64,000 nucleotides of DNA from Chloroflexota bacterium (GTDB lineage: Bacteria > Chloroflexota > UBA6077 > FW602-bin22 > DAOUAE01): assembly GCA_034433795.1 (NCBI GenBank), contig DAOUAE010000002.1, positions 26,371 to 90,370 of the forward strand. The letters are read 5' to 3'. The position numbers and the translations under genes were made by a program. This document shows positions 6,053 through 35,359 of this stretch, one piece after another. Under the pieces are notes generated by a model. The model ran no database searches. It was given only the letters and a program-made list of their open reading frames with translations, and was not told the DNA's origin. Within the stretch, counting starts at the first letter, position 1, and every line of letters starts with the position of its first letter.

Positions 6053-6247
6053 ATGCCCGAGCATCAGCACGAGCAGCCCCCAGCCCGCCCTACCGGTAAG
6101 GAGCGCCCCCGCTGTGAGATCTGCGGTCGGCCCGGCCACTTCTACCAGGAGCAGGATGTGGCCACCGGCAGCCTCCACATCCACGCCTTCTGCCACGAAC
6201 ACGGGGCCGGCCTGACGCCGGTGGCCCTGCCCGAGCACCTGGAGTGA
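6053..6247 (+). CDS. Small hypothetical protein, putative zinc finger (CxxC...HxHxxCxxH)
   Basis: 64 aa ORF with GGGAG RBS, divergent from the helicase. Contains CEIC and HIHAFCHEH. Confidence 0.6.
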   Translation: MPEHQHEQPPARPTGKERPRCEICGRPGHFYQEQDVATGSLHIHAFCHEHGAGLTPVALPEHLE

Positions 6248-6250
6248 TGG

Positions 6251-6280
6251 TTGACGCCCGTCTGGCTGGCGGCGTATGAT
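6251..6280 (+). promoter_or_regulatory. Sigma70-type promoter of the selenoprotein gene
   Basis: TTGACG-N18-TATGAT, ending 11 nt before ATG 6292, which implies a very short leader. Confidence 0.5.
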
Positions 6281-6291
6281 CCTCTCTGGAG

Positions 6292-6759
6292 ATGTGGACG
6301 CTGCTCAACCGCCACTCGCTCCTCCTGCTCGCGGCCGTTCTGGGCGCTCTGACGGGCGGCCTGGTCGGCCGCCCGCCCTGGCGGGGACGCCTGATCGGGG
6401 CGGTCCTGGCGCCAGGAGCGCTCCTGGGCCTCAGCCTCTGGCGACGGAGGCTGGAGCCGGCCGGTCTGGCCGGGCTGGCCGCTGGCCGGCCGGTGCTCCT
6501 CTTCTTCGCCGCCGACCTCTGAGCCGGCTGCCTGGTGGTGAAGCCTGTCGTTGACAGGCTACAGCGACGCTGGGCGGGGCGGCTGACGGTGGTCCGTGTG
6601 GAGGTCCAGACGCCGGCCGGCCGCCGCCTCAGCCGGGAGTGGCGGGTCGAGCAGGTGCCGACCTTCGTCCTGCTGGACGCCACCGGCCGCGAGCGCTGGC
6701 GACGGACCGGCTGGCCGCCGGATGACCGGCTGCTGGCCGACTGGCTCGCCCGCGGGTGA
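6292..6759 (+). CDS. Membrane-anchored thioredoxin-fold selenoprotein (UxxC; in-frame UGA at 6520-6522 read as Sec)
   Basis: ORFs 6292-6522 and 6535-6759 are in the same frame and join as ...LLFFAADL-U-AGC-LVVKPVVDRLQRRWAGRLTVVRV...EQVPTFVLLDATGRERWR. This is a thioredoxin fold with a cis-Pro (VPTF) motif and a SECIS-like hairpin downstream of the UGA. Confidence 0.8.
6542..6560 (+). promoter_or_regulatory. Candidate bacterial SECIS hairpin
   Basis: Perfect 8-bp stem AGCCTGTC/GACAGGCT with a GTT loop, starting 19 nt after the UGA. A possible lower stem pairs GCTG (6527-6530) with CAGC (6562-6565). Confidence 0.7.
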
Positions 6760-6785
6760 GGAGCGGAGGAGAGCGTGGTGAGAAC

Positions 6786-7529
6786 ATGACCTGGACCTTT
6801 GTCCGTGGGACAGCCGATCAGCCGAAAGGGCACGCTCTGCTCTTCTTCCAGGGCGAGCCCTCGGGCCAGGTCCTGGCCACCTACCTGGTGGTCCTGCCCA
6901 TCCGGCTGGATCTGAGCAAATATATCCCGCCGCTGCTGGCCGGCCGGCTGCCGACGGTGGCCAGCCTCTCGGTCGTGCCGTTCCCGCCGGTGCCGGAGCC
7001 GGTCGAGAGCCGCTCCTGGCTGGAGCGGCTGGCGGCCCGGCGCGCGGACGATCTGCTCGATGGCGGGACGGTCAGCGAGACGCCCGAGACGCTGATGCTG
7101 CGGGTGGCCGAGATCGCCCAGGAGTACGCCCGGCTCTACGACGAGCATCTGCAGCGGCCGCCGGCGGAGCCCGAATCGGAGCCGGCGGTGCCCGTCCCGG
7201 CGGTCCTCTACCGTCTGCTGAGCGAGCAGGAGCGCCTGGCCGAGCTGGCCAAACTGGTGGGCAAACTGCGCTACGCCCTCGACTGCGGCGACCGGGCGCT
7301 GGAGCAGGAGGCGCTCCTGGAGATGCACCACCTGGTCCAGGCCCTGCCGGCCAAGTATCGGCCTGAGGAGATCCTCACCGCGGTCCGGCAGCCCGGCCCG
7401 CAGGGGCAGCGGCTGGCCGAGCTCTACATCGACCGCTGCTACCGCCTCTACCACGAGGACTACCAGGCGGTCCAGGCGATCGACCGCGAGATCGCCCGGC
7501 TACGCGGCGAGCGCCCGCCCGACGGCTAA
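6786..7529 (+). CDS. Hypothetical protein, helical C-terminus
   Basis: ORF from ATG 6786 (MTWTFVRGTADQPKGHALLFF...) with typical codon usage. No family motif recognised. Confidence 0.7.
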   Translation: MTWTFVRGTADQPKGHALLFFQGEPSGQVLATYLVVLPIRLDLSKYIPPLLAGRLPTVASLSVVPFPPVPEPVESRSWLERLAARRADDLLDGGTVSETPETLMLRVAEIAQEYARLYDEHLQRPPAEPESEPAVPVPAVLYRLLSEQERLAELAKLVGKLRYALDCGDRALEQEALLEMHHLVQALPAKYRPEEILTAVRQPGPQGQRLAELYIDRCYRLYHEDYQAVQAIDREIARLRGERPPDG

Positions 7530-15224: not shown

Positions 15225-15244
15225 GCGCGCGACCGGGAGGGGCC

Positions 15245-16610
15245 ATGGCCCAGACCATCGATCTCTACACCGCTCGCCTGGACCGACTGCCGCTCTCGCG
15301 CTTTCACTGGAAACTCGTGCTCCTGGCGGGCCTGGGCTGGATGTTCGACGCCATGGACATCCTGCTGGTGGGCGCGGTGGTGGCGGCGATCCGGGCGACC
15401 TGGGGGCTGGACCCACAGACCGCCGGGTTCATCATCAGCGCTAACCTGGCCGGGATGTTTGTCGGAGCGGCCGTCGCCGGCTTTCTGGCCGACCGGTGGG
15501 GGCGCAAGGCTGTCTTCCAGGCGACGCTGCTGCTCTACACGCTCCTGACCGGCCTCTCGGCCCTGGCCGGGAACGCGGTCGCGCTGGCCGTCATCCGCTT
15601 CCTGGCCGGCATCGGGCTGGGAGGCGAACTGCCGGTGGCCAGCACTCTGGTCAGCGAGTTCGCCCCGGCCCGTCACCGGGGCTTTCTCCTGGTCATCCTG
15701 GAGAGTTTCTGGGCCTACGGTTCGGTCCTGGCCGCCCTCATCGGCTACCTGGTCATCCCGACCTGGGGCTGGCAGGCGGCCTTTCTCATCGGGGCGCTGC
15801 CGGCCTTCTATGTCTTCATCCTGCGCCGGGGCATCCCGGAGTCGCCGCGCTACCTGCTGAGCCGGGGGCGGGTGGCCGAGGCCGAGGCGGTGGTCCGGGC
15901 CATCGAGCAGGAGACGGGCGTCGCTCCGCCGGTCGCCCCGACACCAGCCGTGCACGCCGGGCCACGGCCAGCCCCGCGGGCGACCCTGGCGGCGCTCTTC
16001 GGCCCGGGGCTGGCCCGGCGGACGCTGATGCTCTGGATCCTCTGGTTCGCTATGGTCTTCTCGTACTACGGCATCTTTACCTGGCTCCCCAGCCTGCTGG
16101 TGGCCAAGGGCTTCGGCCTGAGCCAGGCCTTCCTGCTCAACCTGGTCATCTCGGTCCTTCCAGATCCCCGGCTACTTCAGCGCCGCCTACCTGGTCGAGC
16201 GCTGGGGGCGCAAGAGCACGCTCGTGACCTTCCTCCTGCTGAACGCGCTGGGGGCCTTCTTCTTCGCCCAGCAGAGCCTGAGCCCGACCCCCGACGTGGC
16301 CCAGATTCTCCTCTGGGGGGCGGTGATCGCCTTCTTCAACCTGGGCGCCTGGGGCGTGGTCTACACCTACACCCCCGAACTCTACCCGACCCGGCTGCGG
16401 GGCACCGGGGCCGGCCTGGCCGCCGCTGCGGGCCGGTTCGGCGGGATCCTCGGCCCCTCCACCGTCGGGCTGCTCCTGGCCCTCTTCGGGGGCAGCCAGT
16501 TCGCGGTCTTCCTGGTCTTCACCGCCCTTCTGCTGATCGGCGGGCTGGTGGTCTGGGCGCTGGGCGAGGAGACAAAGGGGCGCAGCCTGGAGGAGATCTC
16601 CGGCTTCTAG
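15245..16610 (+). pseudogene. MFS transporter (aromatic acid/niacin NiaP-YceI-like), frameshifted near 16160 (true pseudogene or sequence error)
   Basis: N-part has FDAMD, ADRWGRK, GLGGELPV and IPESPRYL. The reading continues in another frame as QIPGYFSAAYLVERWGRK...TPELYPTRLRGTG. Confidence 0.85.
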
Positions 16611-35167: not shown

Positions 35168-35276
35168 CGTCGGCCGGACTGGTGCGGCGACTTGACAGGA
35201 TGCGGGTAGGGCCTCCTAGCCCGTCGGTCAGGGTGGTCAGCGGTTTTGCTGACCCGCCGGCGACGGTTTTTCCCGG

Positions 35277-35359
35277 CGGAGAGGGAGGGATTCGAACCCC
35301 CGAGGCTTGCGCCTTGCTGTTTTCAAGACAGCCGCCTTCAACCACTCGGCCACCTCTCC
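35277..35359 (-). tRNA. tRNA-Ser (anticodon UGA), long variable arm, CCA not fully encoded
   Basis: Acceptor stem GGAGAGG/CCTCTCC, anticodon arm GCTGT-CTTGAAA-ACAGC, variable arm AGGC-GCAA-GCCT and T-loop TTCGAAT. Confidence 0.97.

What the first reader, a model, noticed from the sequence alone, without database searches (positions are those of the whole stretch)
6292..6759. Hidden selenoprotein: membrane-anchored thioredoxin-fold protein with a UxxC motif
Seen in sequence: two same-frame ORFs are separated by a single TGA (6520-6522) that falls exactly where the first Cys of a thioredoxin CxxC belongs (FFAADL-U-A-G-C-LVVKPVVDRL). The downstream part completes the fold with a VPTF cis-Pro loop but has no convincing start of its own. 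Established: UxxC thioredoxin-like selenoproteins exist and are routinely mis-split by gene callers. Inferred: this is a 155-aa selenoprotein with an N-terminal hydrophobic hairpin anchor, which implies the organism has Sec machinery elsewhere in the genome.
Basis: partly seen in the sequence, partly recalled or inferred. Interest (0 to 1): 0.85.

Follow-up and report, generated by a model that had tools for sequence, protein, structure and literature searches.

The report
Unannotated membrane-anchored thioredoxin-like selenoprotein gene
The in-frame TGA at 6520-6522 is almost certainly a selenocysteine codon in a 155-residue membrane-anchored thioredoxin-like protein of a hot-spring Chloroflexota bacterium; this is a correct catch of a gene that annotation pipelines split, but it belongs to an already known kind of selenoprotein.

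Summary
Two same-frame coding segments (6292-6519 and 6523-6756, GC3 about 0.9 in both) are joined by one TGA. That TGA lies exactly on the first Cys of a thioredoxin CxxC.

It is not a sequencing error. The TGA is present in every independent metagenome assembly examined that covers the codon, including two strain variants.

The read-through protein aligns end to end with 155-166-aa Cys homologues. These share an N-terminal LLNQYS motif, two TM helices, C-x-x-C, KPxVDxLE and TPTF.

A metagenome scan that did not condition on this codon gave 95 distinct family members with TGA and 10 with TGC/TGT. Database "Trp" forms are TGA translated under another code.

An 8-bp hairpin with a GUN loop follows the TGA. 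It is built from the codons K-P-x-V-D-(G/R)-L. It covaries in TGA members (93% paired, against 21-43% for slid controls) and is degraded in Cys members. The window has 8 of 8 pairs. A covariance model built without the window hits only 6520-6567 (E 2.8e-16).

One thing was not shown: selA, selB, selC and selD of this organism are not in the reachable DNA.

Verdict: a genuine UxxC Trx-like selenoprotein gene, and a new member of a known kind.

The parts
6292..6759 (+). Complete selenoprotein gene: 155 codons (M1 to G155, U77) plus the terminal TGA stop at 6757-6759
   Evidence: Translation; GC3 about 0.9 in both halves; end-to-end alignment with 155-166-aa Cys homologues.
6301..6351 (+). Predicted transmembrane helix 1 (about residues 4-20), preceded by the family's N-terminal LLN(Q/R)(Y/H)S motif
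   Evidence: Hydropathy window analysis; the motif aligns with the homologues.
6391..6441 (+). Predicted transmembrane helix 2 (about residues 34-50). The short Arg-rich loop between the two helices is predicted to be cytoplasmic
   Evidence: Hydropathy and positive-inside counts across the family.
6520..6522 (+). UGA codon 77, read as selenocysteine: the first position of the U-A-G-C redox motif
   Evidence: Aligns with the first Cys of CxxC in PDB thioredoxins and in family Cys homologues. TGA at the same codon in 95 of 105 distinct metagenomic family members. Conserved in every assembly examined that covers the codon.
6529..6531 (+). TGC codon 80, the resolving Cys of the UxxC motif
   Evidence: Nearly invariant column in the family alignment.
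6542..6560 (+). SECIS apical hairpin: 8-bp stem (6542-6549 paired with 6553-6560) and GUU loop (6550-6552). It is embedded in codons K84-P-V-V-D-R-L90. The stem starts 19 nt after the UGA
   Evidence: Minimum-free-energy fold, z -3.4. Covariation over 96 sequences: 93.2% paired, 97 double-change cells against 39.7 expected, 0 of 500 shuffles as high. RNAalifold recovers it. A covariance model built without the window hits 6520-6567 at 50.9 bits, E 2.8e-16.
6655..6666 (+). V-P-T-F cis-proline loop of the thioredoxin fold (P123)
   Evidence: P123 is the only fully invariant column in the 53-sequence family alignment.
6053..6247 (+). Upstream 64-aa ORF with CxxC and His/Cys-rich motifs, 44 nt before the selenoprotein start. 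Probably co-transcribed; function unknown
   Evidence: Called in all assemblies; no Pfam or NCBIfam family.
6786..7529 (+). Downstream 247-aa ORF, 26 nt after the selenoprotein stop. Probably co-transcribed; function unknown
   Evidence: Called in all assemblies; no Pfam or NCBIfam family.

Best explanation
6292-6759 is one gene for a 155-residue selenoprotein.

Shown: the two halves form a single thioredoxin-fold family gene, and the TGA replaces the first Cys of CxxC. Most family members also have TGA there. An 8-bp hairpin with a GUN loop lies 19 nt after the UGA and is conserved through compensatory changes only in the TGA-bearing members.

Inferred (translation): during translation, SelB carrying Sec-tRNA(Sec) binds this hairpin (6542-6560) and inserts selenocysteine at UGA 6520-6522 instead of terminating.

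Inferred (the protein): two N-terminal helices form a hairpin anchor in the membrane, with the Arg-rich loop inside the cell. This places the thioredoxin domain on the outer face. There, Sec77 attacks substrate disulfides or oxidised thiols, and Cys80 resolves the selenenylsulfide. This resembles membrane-tethered thiol:disulfide reductases. The substrate and the electron donor are unknown.

Inferred (the host): the organism is a deep-branching, thermophilic, 71% G+C member of Chloroflexota.
For: - One gene: the read-through aligns from the N-terminal LLNQYS motif through both TM helices, CxxC, KPxVDxLE and TPTF with Cys homologues of 155-166 aa. Pfam Thioredoxin is passed only by the joined protein.
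- Sec/Cys pair: an exhaustive HMMER search with the C-terminal half returned 440 hits. These fall into full-length CxxC proteins and many 70-80-aa ORFs that begin right after the first-Cys position.
- TGA is the majority state: a DNA scan anchored on the second Cys and the KPxVDxLE motif, not on the first codon, gave 95 distinct TGA members and 10 TGC/TGT members. The upstream frame is open in all of them.
- SECIS: pair P3-R1 is CG 52 / UA 39 / GC 2 / UG 2, and pair x1-D3 is GC 55 / AU 37 / GU 3. Overall 93.2% of cells are paired, against 21-43% when partners are slid. Double-change cells number 97 against 39.7 +/- 5.9 in shuffles.
- Cys members keep a mean of only 4.3 of 8 pairs, against 7.45 of 8 in TGA members.
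- The window has 8 of 8 pairs, and model R1, built without the window, hits it uniquely (50.9 bits, next best 9.2).
- Not an error or a fresh mutation: TGA and hairpin are intact in every assembly examined that covers the codon and in two strain lineages about 1% diverged. In one of these the only change inside the hairpin is the unpaired third loop base.
- TGA is otherwise the commonest stop codon of the window's ORFs, so the code is standard.
- Fold: an AlphaFold model of the Cys homologue P0169 shows a TM helix plus a thioredoxin fold. Target-normalised TM-scores are about 0.8-0.9 for typical free-standing thioredoxin chains.
- Topology: the side opposite the Trx domain is the more positive in 26 of 32 two-TM members (3 the other way) and in 27 of 43 one-TM members (5 the other way).
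- Taxon: all named PcrA best hits are Chloroflexi/Chloroflexota MAGs at 61% identity or less. BSepDB lists Chloroflexota (Dehalococcoidia) with 46-49 selenoproteins, so the trait exists in the phylum (PMC13326102).
Against: - No selA, selB, selD or tRNA-Sec was found in the 64-kb window or in the extra flank reached. The rest of the genome could not be searched, so decoding capacity in this organism is inferred, not shown.
- Strain-level variation is too sparse to prove purifying selection on the downstream half. One lineage has 4 synonymous and 4 non-synonymous changes. The other has 4 synonymous changes and one changed codon.
- The 3-nt loop is small, and the UGA-to-stem spacing (19 nt) is longer than in the E. 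coli fdhF element (from my own knowledge).
- No Rfam family matches.
- In the window's own protein the charge bias across the membrane is weak (+3 in the loop against net +2 after TM2), so the outward orientation rests mainly on the relatives.
Confidence: 0.86

Rival explanations
1. Relic selenoprotein gene. The lineage inherited the TGA form but has lost the Sec machinery, so translation stops at 6520 and only a 76-residue membrane peptide, or nothing useful, is made.
For: No Sec machinery gene or tRNA-Sec in the DNA that could be read. The ratio of non-synonymous to synonymous changes in the few strain differences is not clearly low.
Against: Both halves keep an open frame, GC3 about 0.9 and every near-invariant family residue. 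The hairpin keeps 8 of 8 pairs and the GU loop in three strain lineages. A dead gene in a 71% G+C genome would be expected to pick up frameshifts and stem mismatches. Losing the Sec trait usually goes with loss of the gene or conversion to Cys (general knowledge; PMC1794560 abstract).
Confidence: 0.08
2. Two separate small genes: a 76-aa two-helix membrane protein ending at a normal TGA stop, followed by an independent truncated thioredoxin-like fragment started at GTG 6535 or later.
For: This is how all pipelines annotated the locus.
Against: The downstream piece lacks the first active-site residue and strand beta-1 of the fold, and alone fails the Pfam threshold. Callers disagree on its start (74, 56 or 53 aa). 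Cys homologues are single 155-166-aa proteins covering both halves. The hairpin covariation has no explanation under this reading.
Confidence: 0.03
3. The TGA is read through as another amino acid (for example Trp by near-cognate decoding, or a reassigned code), not as selenocysteine.
For: Some database homologues show Trp at this position.
Against: For the one Trp form whose DNA was examined (P0018), the 'Trp' is a TGA codon translated under another table. No TGG was seen at this codon in the 105 distinct family sequences. TGA ends most ORFs in the window, so it is not reassigned. A SelB-type hairpin is conserved next to it.
Confidence: 0.02
4. Sequencing or assembly error of a TGC, TGT or TGG codon.
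For: None found.
Against: The TGA is identical in every assembly examined that covers the codon. These are JGI, ENA and Logan assemblies from different samples and include two strain variants.
Confidence: 0.01

Closest known systems
Sec-containing thioredoxin and Trx-like UxxC selenoproteins of bacteria (Trx, PF00085, UxxC; 'Trx-like 1' and 'Trx-like 3' of the GOS survey, PMC2398784; Table 1 of PMC13188914)
   Same: Thioredoxin fold. Sec sits in the first position of UxxC, pairing with Cys in homologues. A bacterial SECIS hairpin with a small G-containing loop lies just downstream inside the coding region. Like GOS 'Trx-like 3', Sec forms are at least as common as Cys forms. There is only a distant resemblance to the TxlA/slr1796 type (weak NF038096 hits).
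   Different: The characterised Sec-thioredoxin (Treponema denticola type) is, to my knowledge, a soluble protein of about 105 aa. This one carries an N-terminal two-helix membrane anchor and its own conserved motifs (LLNQYS, SPY-U-xxC, KPxVD(G/R)LE).
Membrane-anchored extracytoplasmic thiol:disulfide reductases (TlpA, ResA, DsbE/CcmG)
   Same: A Trx-fold domain tethered to the membrane by an N-terminal anchor and predicted to face outward, with a CxxC-type motif and a cis-Pro loop. This is the likely working analogy.
   Different: The anchor here is a two-helix hairpin rather than one helix. Matches to the DsbE and ResA models are far below their cut-offs. The structural neighbours are classical thioredoxins, not TlpA or ResA. 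The nucleophile is Sec rather than Cys.
Curated Trx-like selenoprotein models in NCBIfam (SaoT NF040730, HUIPC-motif NF047660, GOS_C NF045500, VPGUxxT NF041383)
   Same: Thioredoxin-like selenoproteins with Sec in or near a UxxC motif.
   Different: None of these models matched the window protein or ten other family members tested, four database Cys homologues and six read-through metagenomic members, at E <= 0.01. So the family has no specific curated model.
E. coli fdhF-type bacterial SECIS
   Same: A hairpin inside the ORF directly after the UGA, with a conserved G-U in a small apical loop (feature as stated in PMC1088965).
   Different: The stem starts 19 nt after the UGA rather than about 11 nt (from my own knowledge). 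The loop is only 3 nt as drawn. The element is laid over a strongly conserved peptide motif, so the protein and the RNA constrain the same bases.

Membership tests
Bacterial selenoprotein gene | In-frame UGA with coding sequence in the same frame on both sides | tested here: met
Bacterial selenoprotein gene | The UGA aligns with a conserved, functionally critical Cys in homologues (Sec/Cys pair) | tested here: met
   First Cys of CxxC in PDB thioredoxins and in full-length family homologues. TGC/TGT members are seen at the DNA level.
Bacterial selenoprotein gene | TGA recurs at the same codon in divergent homologues | tested here: met
   95 of 105 distinct family sequences, from a scan that did not condition on this codon. 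An apparent Trp form is really TGA.
Bacterial selenoprotein gene | SECIS stem-loop just downstream of the UGA with a small apical loop containing G | tested here: met
   8-bp stem and GUU loop at 6542-6560. Compensatory covariation, RNAalifold and a covariance-model hit at E 2.8e-16. The hairpin is degraded in Cys members.
Bacterial selenoprotein gene | selA, selB, selC (tRNA-Sec) and selD in the same genome | not testable with these tools
   None in the window or reachable flanks. The single genome-collection scan did not find the species, and the rest of the MAG could not be read.
Bacterial selenoprotein gene | Selenium actually incorporated (75Se labelling or mass spectrometry) | not testable with these tools
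   This is an experiment.
Thioredoxin-fold oxidoreductase (Pfam PF00085) | Profile match above the curated threshold | tested here: met
   30.5 bits against a cut-off of 23.5, with U written as C.
Thioredoxin-fold oxidoreductase (Pfam PF00085) | CxxC-type motif plus the cis-Pro loop | tested here: met
   U77-A-G-C80 is aligned to CxxC. P123 of VPTF is invariant in the family.
Thioredoxin-fold oxidoreductase (Pfam PF00085) | Thioredoxin three-dimensional fold | tested here: met
   Tested on the Cys homologue P0169, not on the window protein itself, because the read-through sequence was not accepted by the tool. pLDDT is 83, and target-normalised TM-scores are about 0.8-0.9 for typical free-standing thioredoxin chains.
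GOS 'Trx-like 3' selenoprotein family (distant TxlA, cd02950) | UxxC, distant similarity to TxlA-type membrane Trx-like proteins, Sec forms about as common as Cys forms | tested here: inconclusive
   UxxC and Sec predominance fit (PMC2398784). There are only weak NF038096 (slr1796) hits, E 1e-6 to 8e-3, far below the cut-off. No sequences from that paper were available to compare.
TlpA/ResA/DsbE membrane-anchored reductases | Sequence membership in the DsbE/ResA/TlpA models | tested here: not met
   TIGR00385, NF011941 and NF002854 score 16-21 bits against cut-offs of 123-359.
TlpA/ResA/DsbE membrane-anchored reductases | Trx domain on the extracytoplasmic side of the membrane | tested here: inconclusive
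   Positive-inside counts favour an outward domain in 26 of 32 two-TM members (3 the other way) and 27 of 43 one-TM members (5 the other way). The bias is weak in the window protein itself, and there is no experimental topology.
Curated Trx-like selenoprotein families (SaoT, HUIPC-motif, GOS_C, VPGUxxT) | Match to the NCBIfam model | tested here: not met
   No hit at E <= 0.01 for the window protein or the ten other family members tested.

The most novel reading that the evidence does not exclude
This may be a distinct selenoprotein family with no curated model so far. It is membrane-anchored and probably outward-facing, it uses Sec in about nine of ten members, and it is widespread in marine, sediment and hot-spring bacteria. 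Its SECIS hairpin is written into the family's most conserved peptide motif, KPxVD(G/R)LE. As a result, protein and RNA constraints co-evolve: Ile-AUC goes with Asp-GAU, Val-GUC with Asp-GAC, Pro-CCC with Gly-GGG, and Pro-CCU with Arg-AGG. Its presence in a 71% G+C Chloroflexota lineage, apparently thermophilic, would extend Sec use to a lineage that was not represented in the GTDB species-representative genome collection searched here.
Probability: 0.35. Interest if true: 0.55.

Novelty: new member of a known kind. Interest (0 to 1): 0.4.

Why it matters
For this genome, it repairs a mis-split gene and implies that the organism decodes selenocysteine. That is a metabolic trait (a selenium requirement, and the sel genes) which would otherwise be missed in a deep-branching thermophilic Chloroflexota lineage known only from metagenomes.

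More broadly, public protein collections hold this family almost entirely as truncated halves or as proteins with a false Trp. No curated model covers it. The alignment and the covariance model made here would let annotators recover hundreds of members.

The overlap of the SECIS hairpin with a conserved peptide motif is a clean, testable example of dual coding. It is not a new principle: UxxC thioredoxin-fold selenoproteins are the commonest class of bacterial selenoprotein.

Tried and rejected
- The word-indexed homologue search with the read-through protein found nothing.
- The single genome-collection scan, queried with the neighbouring helicase to obtain syntenic relatives and the organism's name, returned only an unrelated Clostridiales hit. 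The species is therefore not among the representative genomes, and that route to the sel genes was closed.
It was replaced by a hand-made degenerate DNA pattern.
- Rfam found no SECIS or tRNA-Sec at either the gathering or the permissive threshold.
- ARAGORN found no tRNA-Sec in the window or in 60 related loci.
- Cluster look-ups gave no organism names. The phylum was inferred from PcrA homologues instead.
- The longer lower stems of the window's minimum-free-energy fold are not conserved in the family, so they were dropped from the SECIS model.
- The minus-strand ORFs overlapping the locus (6090-7454 and 6142-6558) were set aside as high-G+C artefacts, because the plus strand carries the family match.
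- Sequencing error, code reassignment, Trp read-through and the two-gene reading were each considered and rejected (see the rival explanations).

Full report
**Observation**

The plus strand from 6292 to 6759 translates as MWTLLNRHSLLLLAAV...PVLLFFAADL*AGCLVVKPVVDRLQRRW...EQVPTFVLLDATGRERWRRTG...ARG*. There is one internal stop, TGA at 6520-6522.

- G+C at the third codon position is 0.90 before the TGA and 0.91 after it, and second-position G+C is 0.57 and 0.56. This is the signature of real coding sequence in a 71% G+C genome, and it holds in the same frame on both sides.
- A scan of all six frames of the window for TGA codons with coding-type composition on both sides found three. The other two are just the ends of genes that happen to be followed by the next gene in the same frame.
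- With the stop written as Cys, the 155-aa protein passes the Pfam Thioredoxin threshold (30.5 bits against 23.5). The downstream half alone does not.
- Alignments to solved thioredoxins put the TGA on the first Cys of CxxC.

**Not an error**

The 468-bp gene region was recovered from 17 fetched copies, drawn from JGI, ENA and Logan assemblies of different samples.

- Fourteen copies are identical to the window.
- Three share a variant with four synonymous changes upstream and one changed codon (T99E) downstream.
- A further strain (L143, 98.9% identical over 4.6 kb) has four synonymous and four non-synonymous changes.
- All of them keep the TGA.

**One gene, and a family**

The word-indexed search found no relatives. 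An exhaustive HMMER search with the C-terminal half found 440. They fall into two groups:

- proteins of about 150-170 aa with the match at residues 80-150;
- many ORFs of about 70-80 aa whose first residues are M-G-C, M-A-C, V-A-C or M-C-L, which means they start directly after the position of the first Cys.

The full-length group shares an N-terminal LLNQYS motif, two hydrophobic helices, (S/Y)-x-(Y/F)-C-x-x-C, KPxVDxLE and TPTF. The window's read-through protein aligns with this group over its whole length, including MWTLLNRHS against LLNQYS. So the upstream ORF is the N-terminal part of the same protein.

**TGA against Cys at the DNA level**

I scanned the metagenome collection with a degenerate pattern. 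The pattern starts at the second Cys codon and covers KPxVDxLE plus a conserved Arg, so the codon in question was left free.

- Among the fetched loci, 105 distinct sequences have the family's upstream context.
- 95 carry TGA and 10 carry TGT or TGC. None carries TGG.
- In every case the frame stays open upstream through the hydrophobic N-terminus.
- Database members that show Trp at this position are TGA codons translated with a TGA=Trp table. For P0018, the contig translates with a stop there under table 11.

**SECIS**

In the window, the RNA after the UGA folds more stably than its shuffles (z = -3.4). The conserved part is an 8-bp stem with a 3-nt loop, at columns 23-30 and 34-41 counted from the U of UGA (6542-6560). 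It is made from the codons AAG-CCU-GUC | GUU | GAC-AGG-CU, that is K-P-V | V | D-R-L.

Over 96 distinct sequences:

| Measure | Structure as drawn | Control |
|---|---|---|
| Cells forming a standard pair | 93.2% | 21-43% (3' partners slid by 1-3 columns) |
| Cells changed on both sides | 97 | 39.7 +/- 5.9 (shuffles; 0 of 500 as high) |

The two informative pairs involve bases that the search pattern did not fix, or fixed only as a pyrimidine:

- Pro third base with the first base of the Gly/Arg codon: CG 52, UA 39, GC 2, UG 2, one mismatch.
- First base of the x codon with the Asp third base: GC 55, AU 37, GU 3, one mismatch.

All four combinations occur inside a single subfamily. L026, L034, L030 and L080 are examples in the alignment. 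The changes are therefore repeated events, not one inherited split.

RNAalifold recovers the same helix without being told. The ten Cys-coding sequences keep on average 4.3 of the 8 pairs, against 7.45 in the TGA members, and have Ala, Ser, Glu or Gln where the TGA members need Gly or Arg.

A covariance model built from the 95 other sequences hits the window once, at 6520-6567 on the plus strand. The score is 50.9 bits (E about 3e-16), and the next best hit scores 9.2 bits.

[quoted passage not shown] No Rfam family matches.

**The protein**

- An AlphaFold model of the Cys homologue P0169 (mean pLDDT 83) has an N-terminal helix followed by a thioredoxin fold. Its best structural matches are classical thioredoxins, with target-normalised TM-scores of about 0.8-0.9 for typical free-standing chains. 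The tool did not accept the read-through sequence of the window itself.
- Counting Lys/Arg and Asp/Glu around the predicted helices, the side of the membrane away from the Trx domain is the more positive in 26 of 32 two-helix members (3 the other way) and 27 of 43 one-helix members (5 the other way).
- By the positive-inside rule, the Trx domain should therefore face outward. In the window's own protein the bias is weak.
- I infer a membrane-tethered, outward-facing selenol/thiol oxidoreductase. Sec77 would be the attacking residue and Cys80 the resolving one. Substrate and reductant are unknown.
- In other members' loci, a CsoR-like repressor, a MerR-like regulator or an EF-G-like GTPase recur nearby. 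These were named by eye only. They hint at metal or redox stress, but the window's own neighbours are a 64-aa Cys/His-rich ORF and a 247-aa ORF with no known family.

**The organism and its Sec machinery**

- The window is ordinary chromosome. It carries sbcCD, a HelY-type helicase, htpX, the fab genes, lgt, znuABC, pcrA, the mraW-to-murB cell-wall cluster, ndk, cstA and arsA.
- Most ORFs end in TGA, so the code is standard.
- The named best hits of its PcrA are all Chloroflexi/Chloroflexota MAGs at 61% identity or less. This indicates a deep branch of that phylum.
- The window holds no tRNA-Sec and no selA, selB or selD (and the Pfam scans). The single genome-collection scan did not find the species.
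It rests on the intact frame, the intact hairpin and the retention of every near-invariant residue.
- Selenoprotein-rich Chloroflexota are on record (BSepDB, PMC13326102).

**Comparison with what is known**

Thioredoxin-fold UxxC proteins are the commonest class of bacterial selenoprotein (PMC13188914 Table 1; PMC1088965; PMC2398784).

The GOS survey's 'Trx-like 3' family is distantly TxlA-like, has UxxC, and counts 212 Sec against 183 Cys sequences. It is the likeliest earlier description of this family. The weak hits to the slr1796/TxlA-type model agree with that. I could not compare sequences, so this stays unproven.

No specific NCBIfam model matches the window protein or ten other family members tested: not SaoT, not the HUIPC-motif family, not GOS_C, and not VPGUxxT. 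Databases hold the family as fragments or with a false Trp.

**Verdict**

It is a new member of a known kind, in a lineage and a subfamily that are poorly annotated. The main residual doubt, about 10-15%, is whether this particular organism still decodes Sec.

Noticed in passing
L148:63-563 (also P0018, P0166-P0168, P0081, P0095): Public protein entries of this family that show Trp in the active site (Y-W-I-A-C) look like TGA codons translated under a TGA=Trp table by the gene caller. This was verified at the DNA level only for P0018 (L148). They are hidden selenoproteins too, and for P0018 the same hairpin follows the TGA.
   Followed up: yes
window 6541-6563, and alignment A3 columns 22-44: The family's most conserved peptide motif, KPxVD(G/R)LE, coincides with the SECIS stem. 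TGA members need Gly or Arg (GGG, AGG, CGG) opposite Pro (CCN), while Cys members have Ala, Ser, Glu or Gln there. Part of the apparent protein conservation is therefore RNA constraint.
   Followed up: yes
window about 15225-16610 (+); L002:3222-4600 against L003:3223-4587: The MFS transporter gene next to lgt is called as a 128-aa fragment in the window's strain, but as a 454-aa protein in a strain variant. The two differ by a 1-nt indel. This is either a frameshifted pseudogene or an assembly error.
   Followed up: partly
window 6053-6247 (+) and 6786-7529 (+): Two ORFs with no known family flank the selenoprotein gene on the same strand, with gaps of 44 and 26 nt. They are 64 aa (with CEICGRPGH...HIHAFCHEH) and 247 aa. 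They were found only in this species' own clusters and look like operon partners.
   Followed up: partly
L112:+313..+825 relative to the TGA, and 12 further loci; L046 and 6 further loci; L129 and 15 further loci: Recurrent neighbours of other family members: a CsoR/RcnR-like repressor about 0.5 kb downstream (13 loci), a MerR-like regulator (7 loci) and a divergent EF-G-like GTPase upstream (16 loci). These were named by eye from the sequences, not scanned against a library.
   Followed up: no
L120:1846-1935 (-) against L110 and L141: A shorter one-helix relative (MLYFYSP-x-U/C-P-I/V-C-Q-x-MKP) also occurs in both TGA and TGT forms. The same hairpin is present in the TGA form. This may be a second Sec/Cys subfamily.
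   Followed up: no
window 35275-35359 (-): The only tRNA gene in the window is tRNA-Ser(UGA anticodon). It is an ordinary tRNA, not tRNA-Sec.
   Followed up: yes
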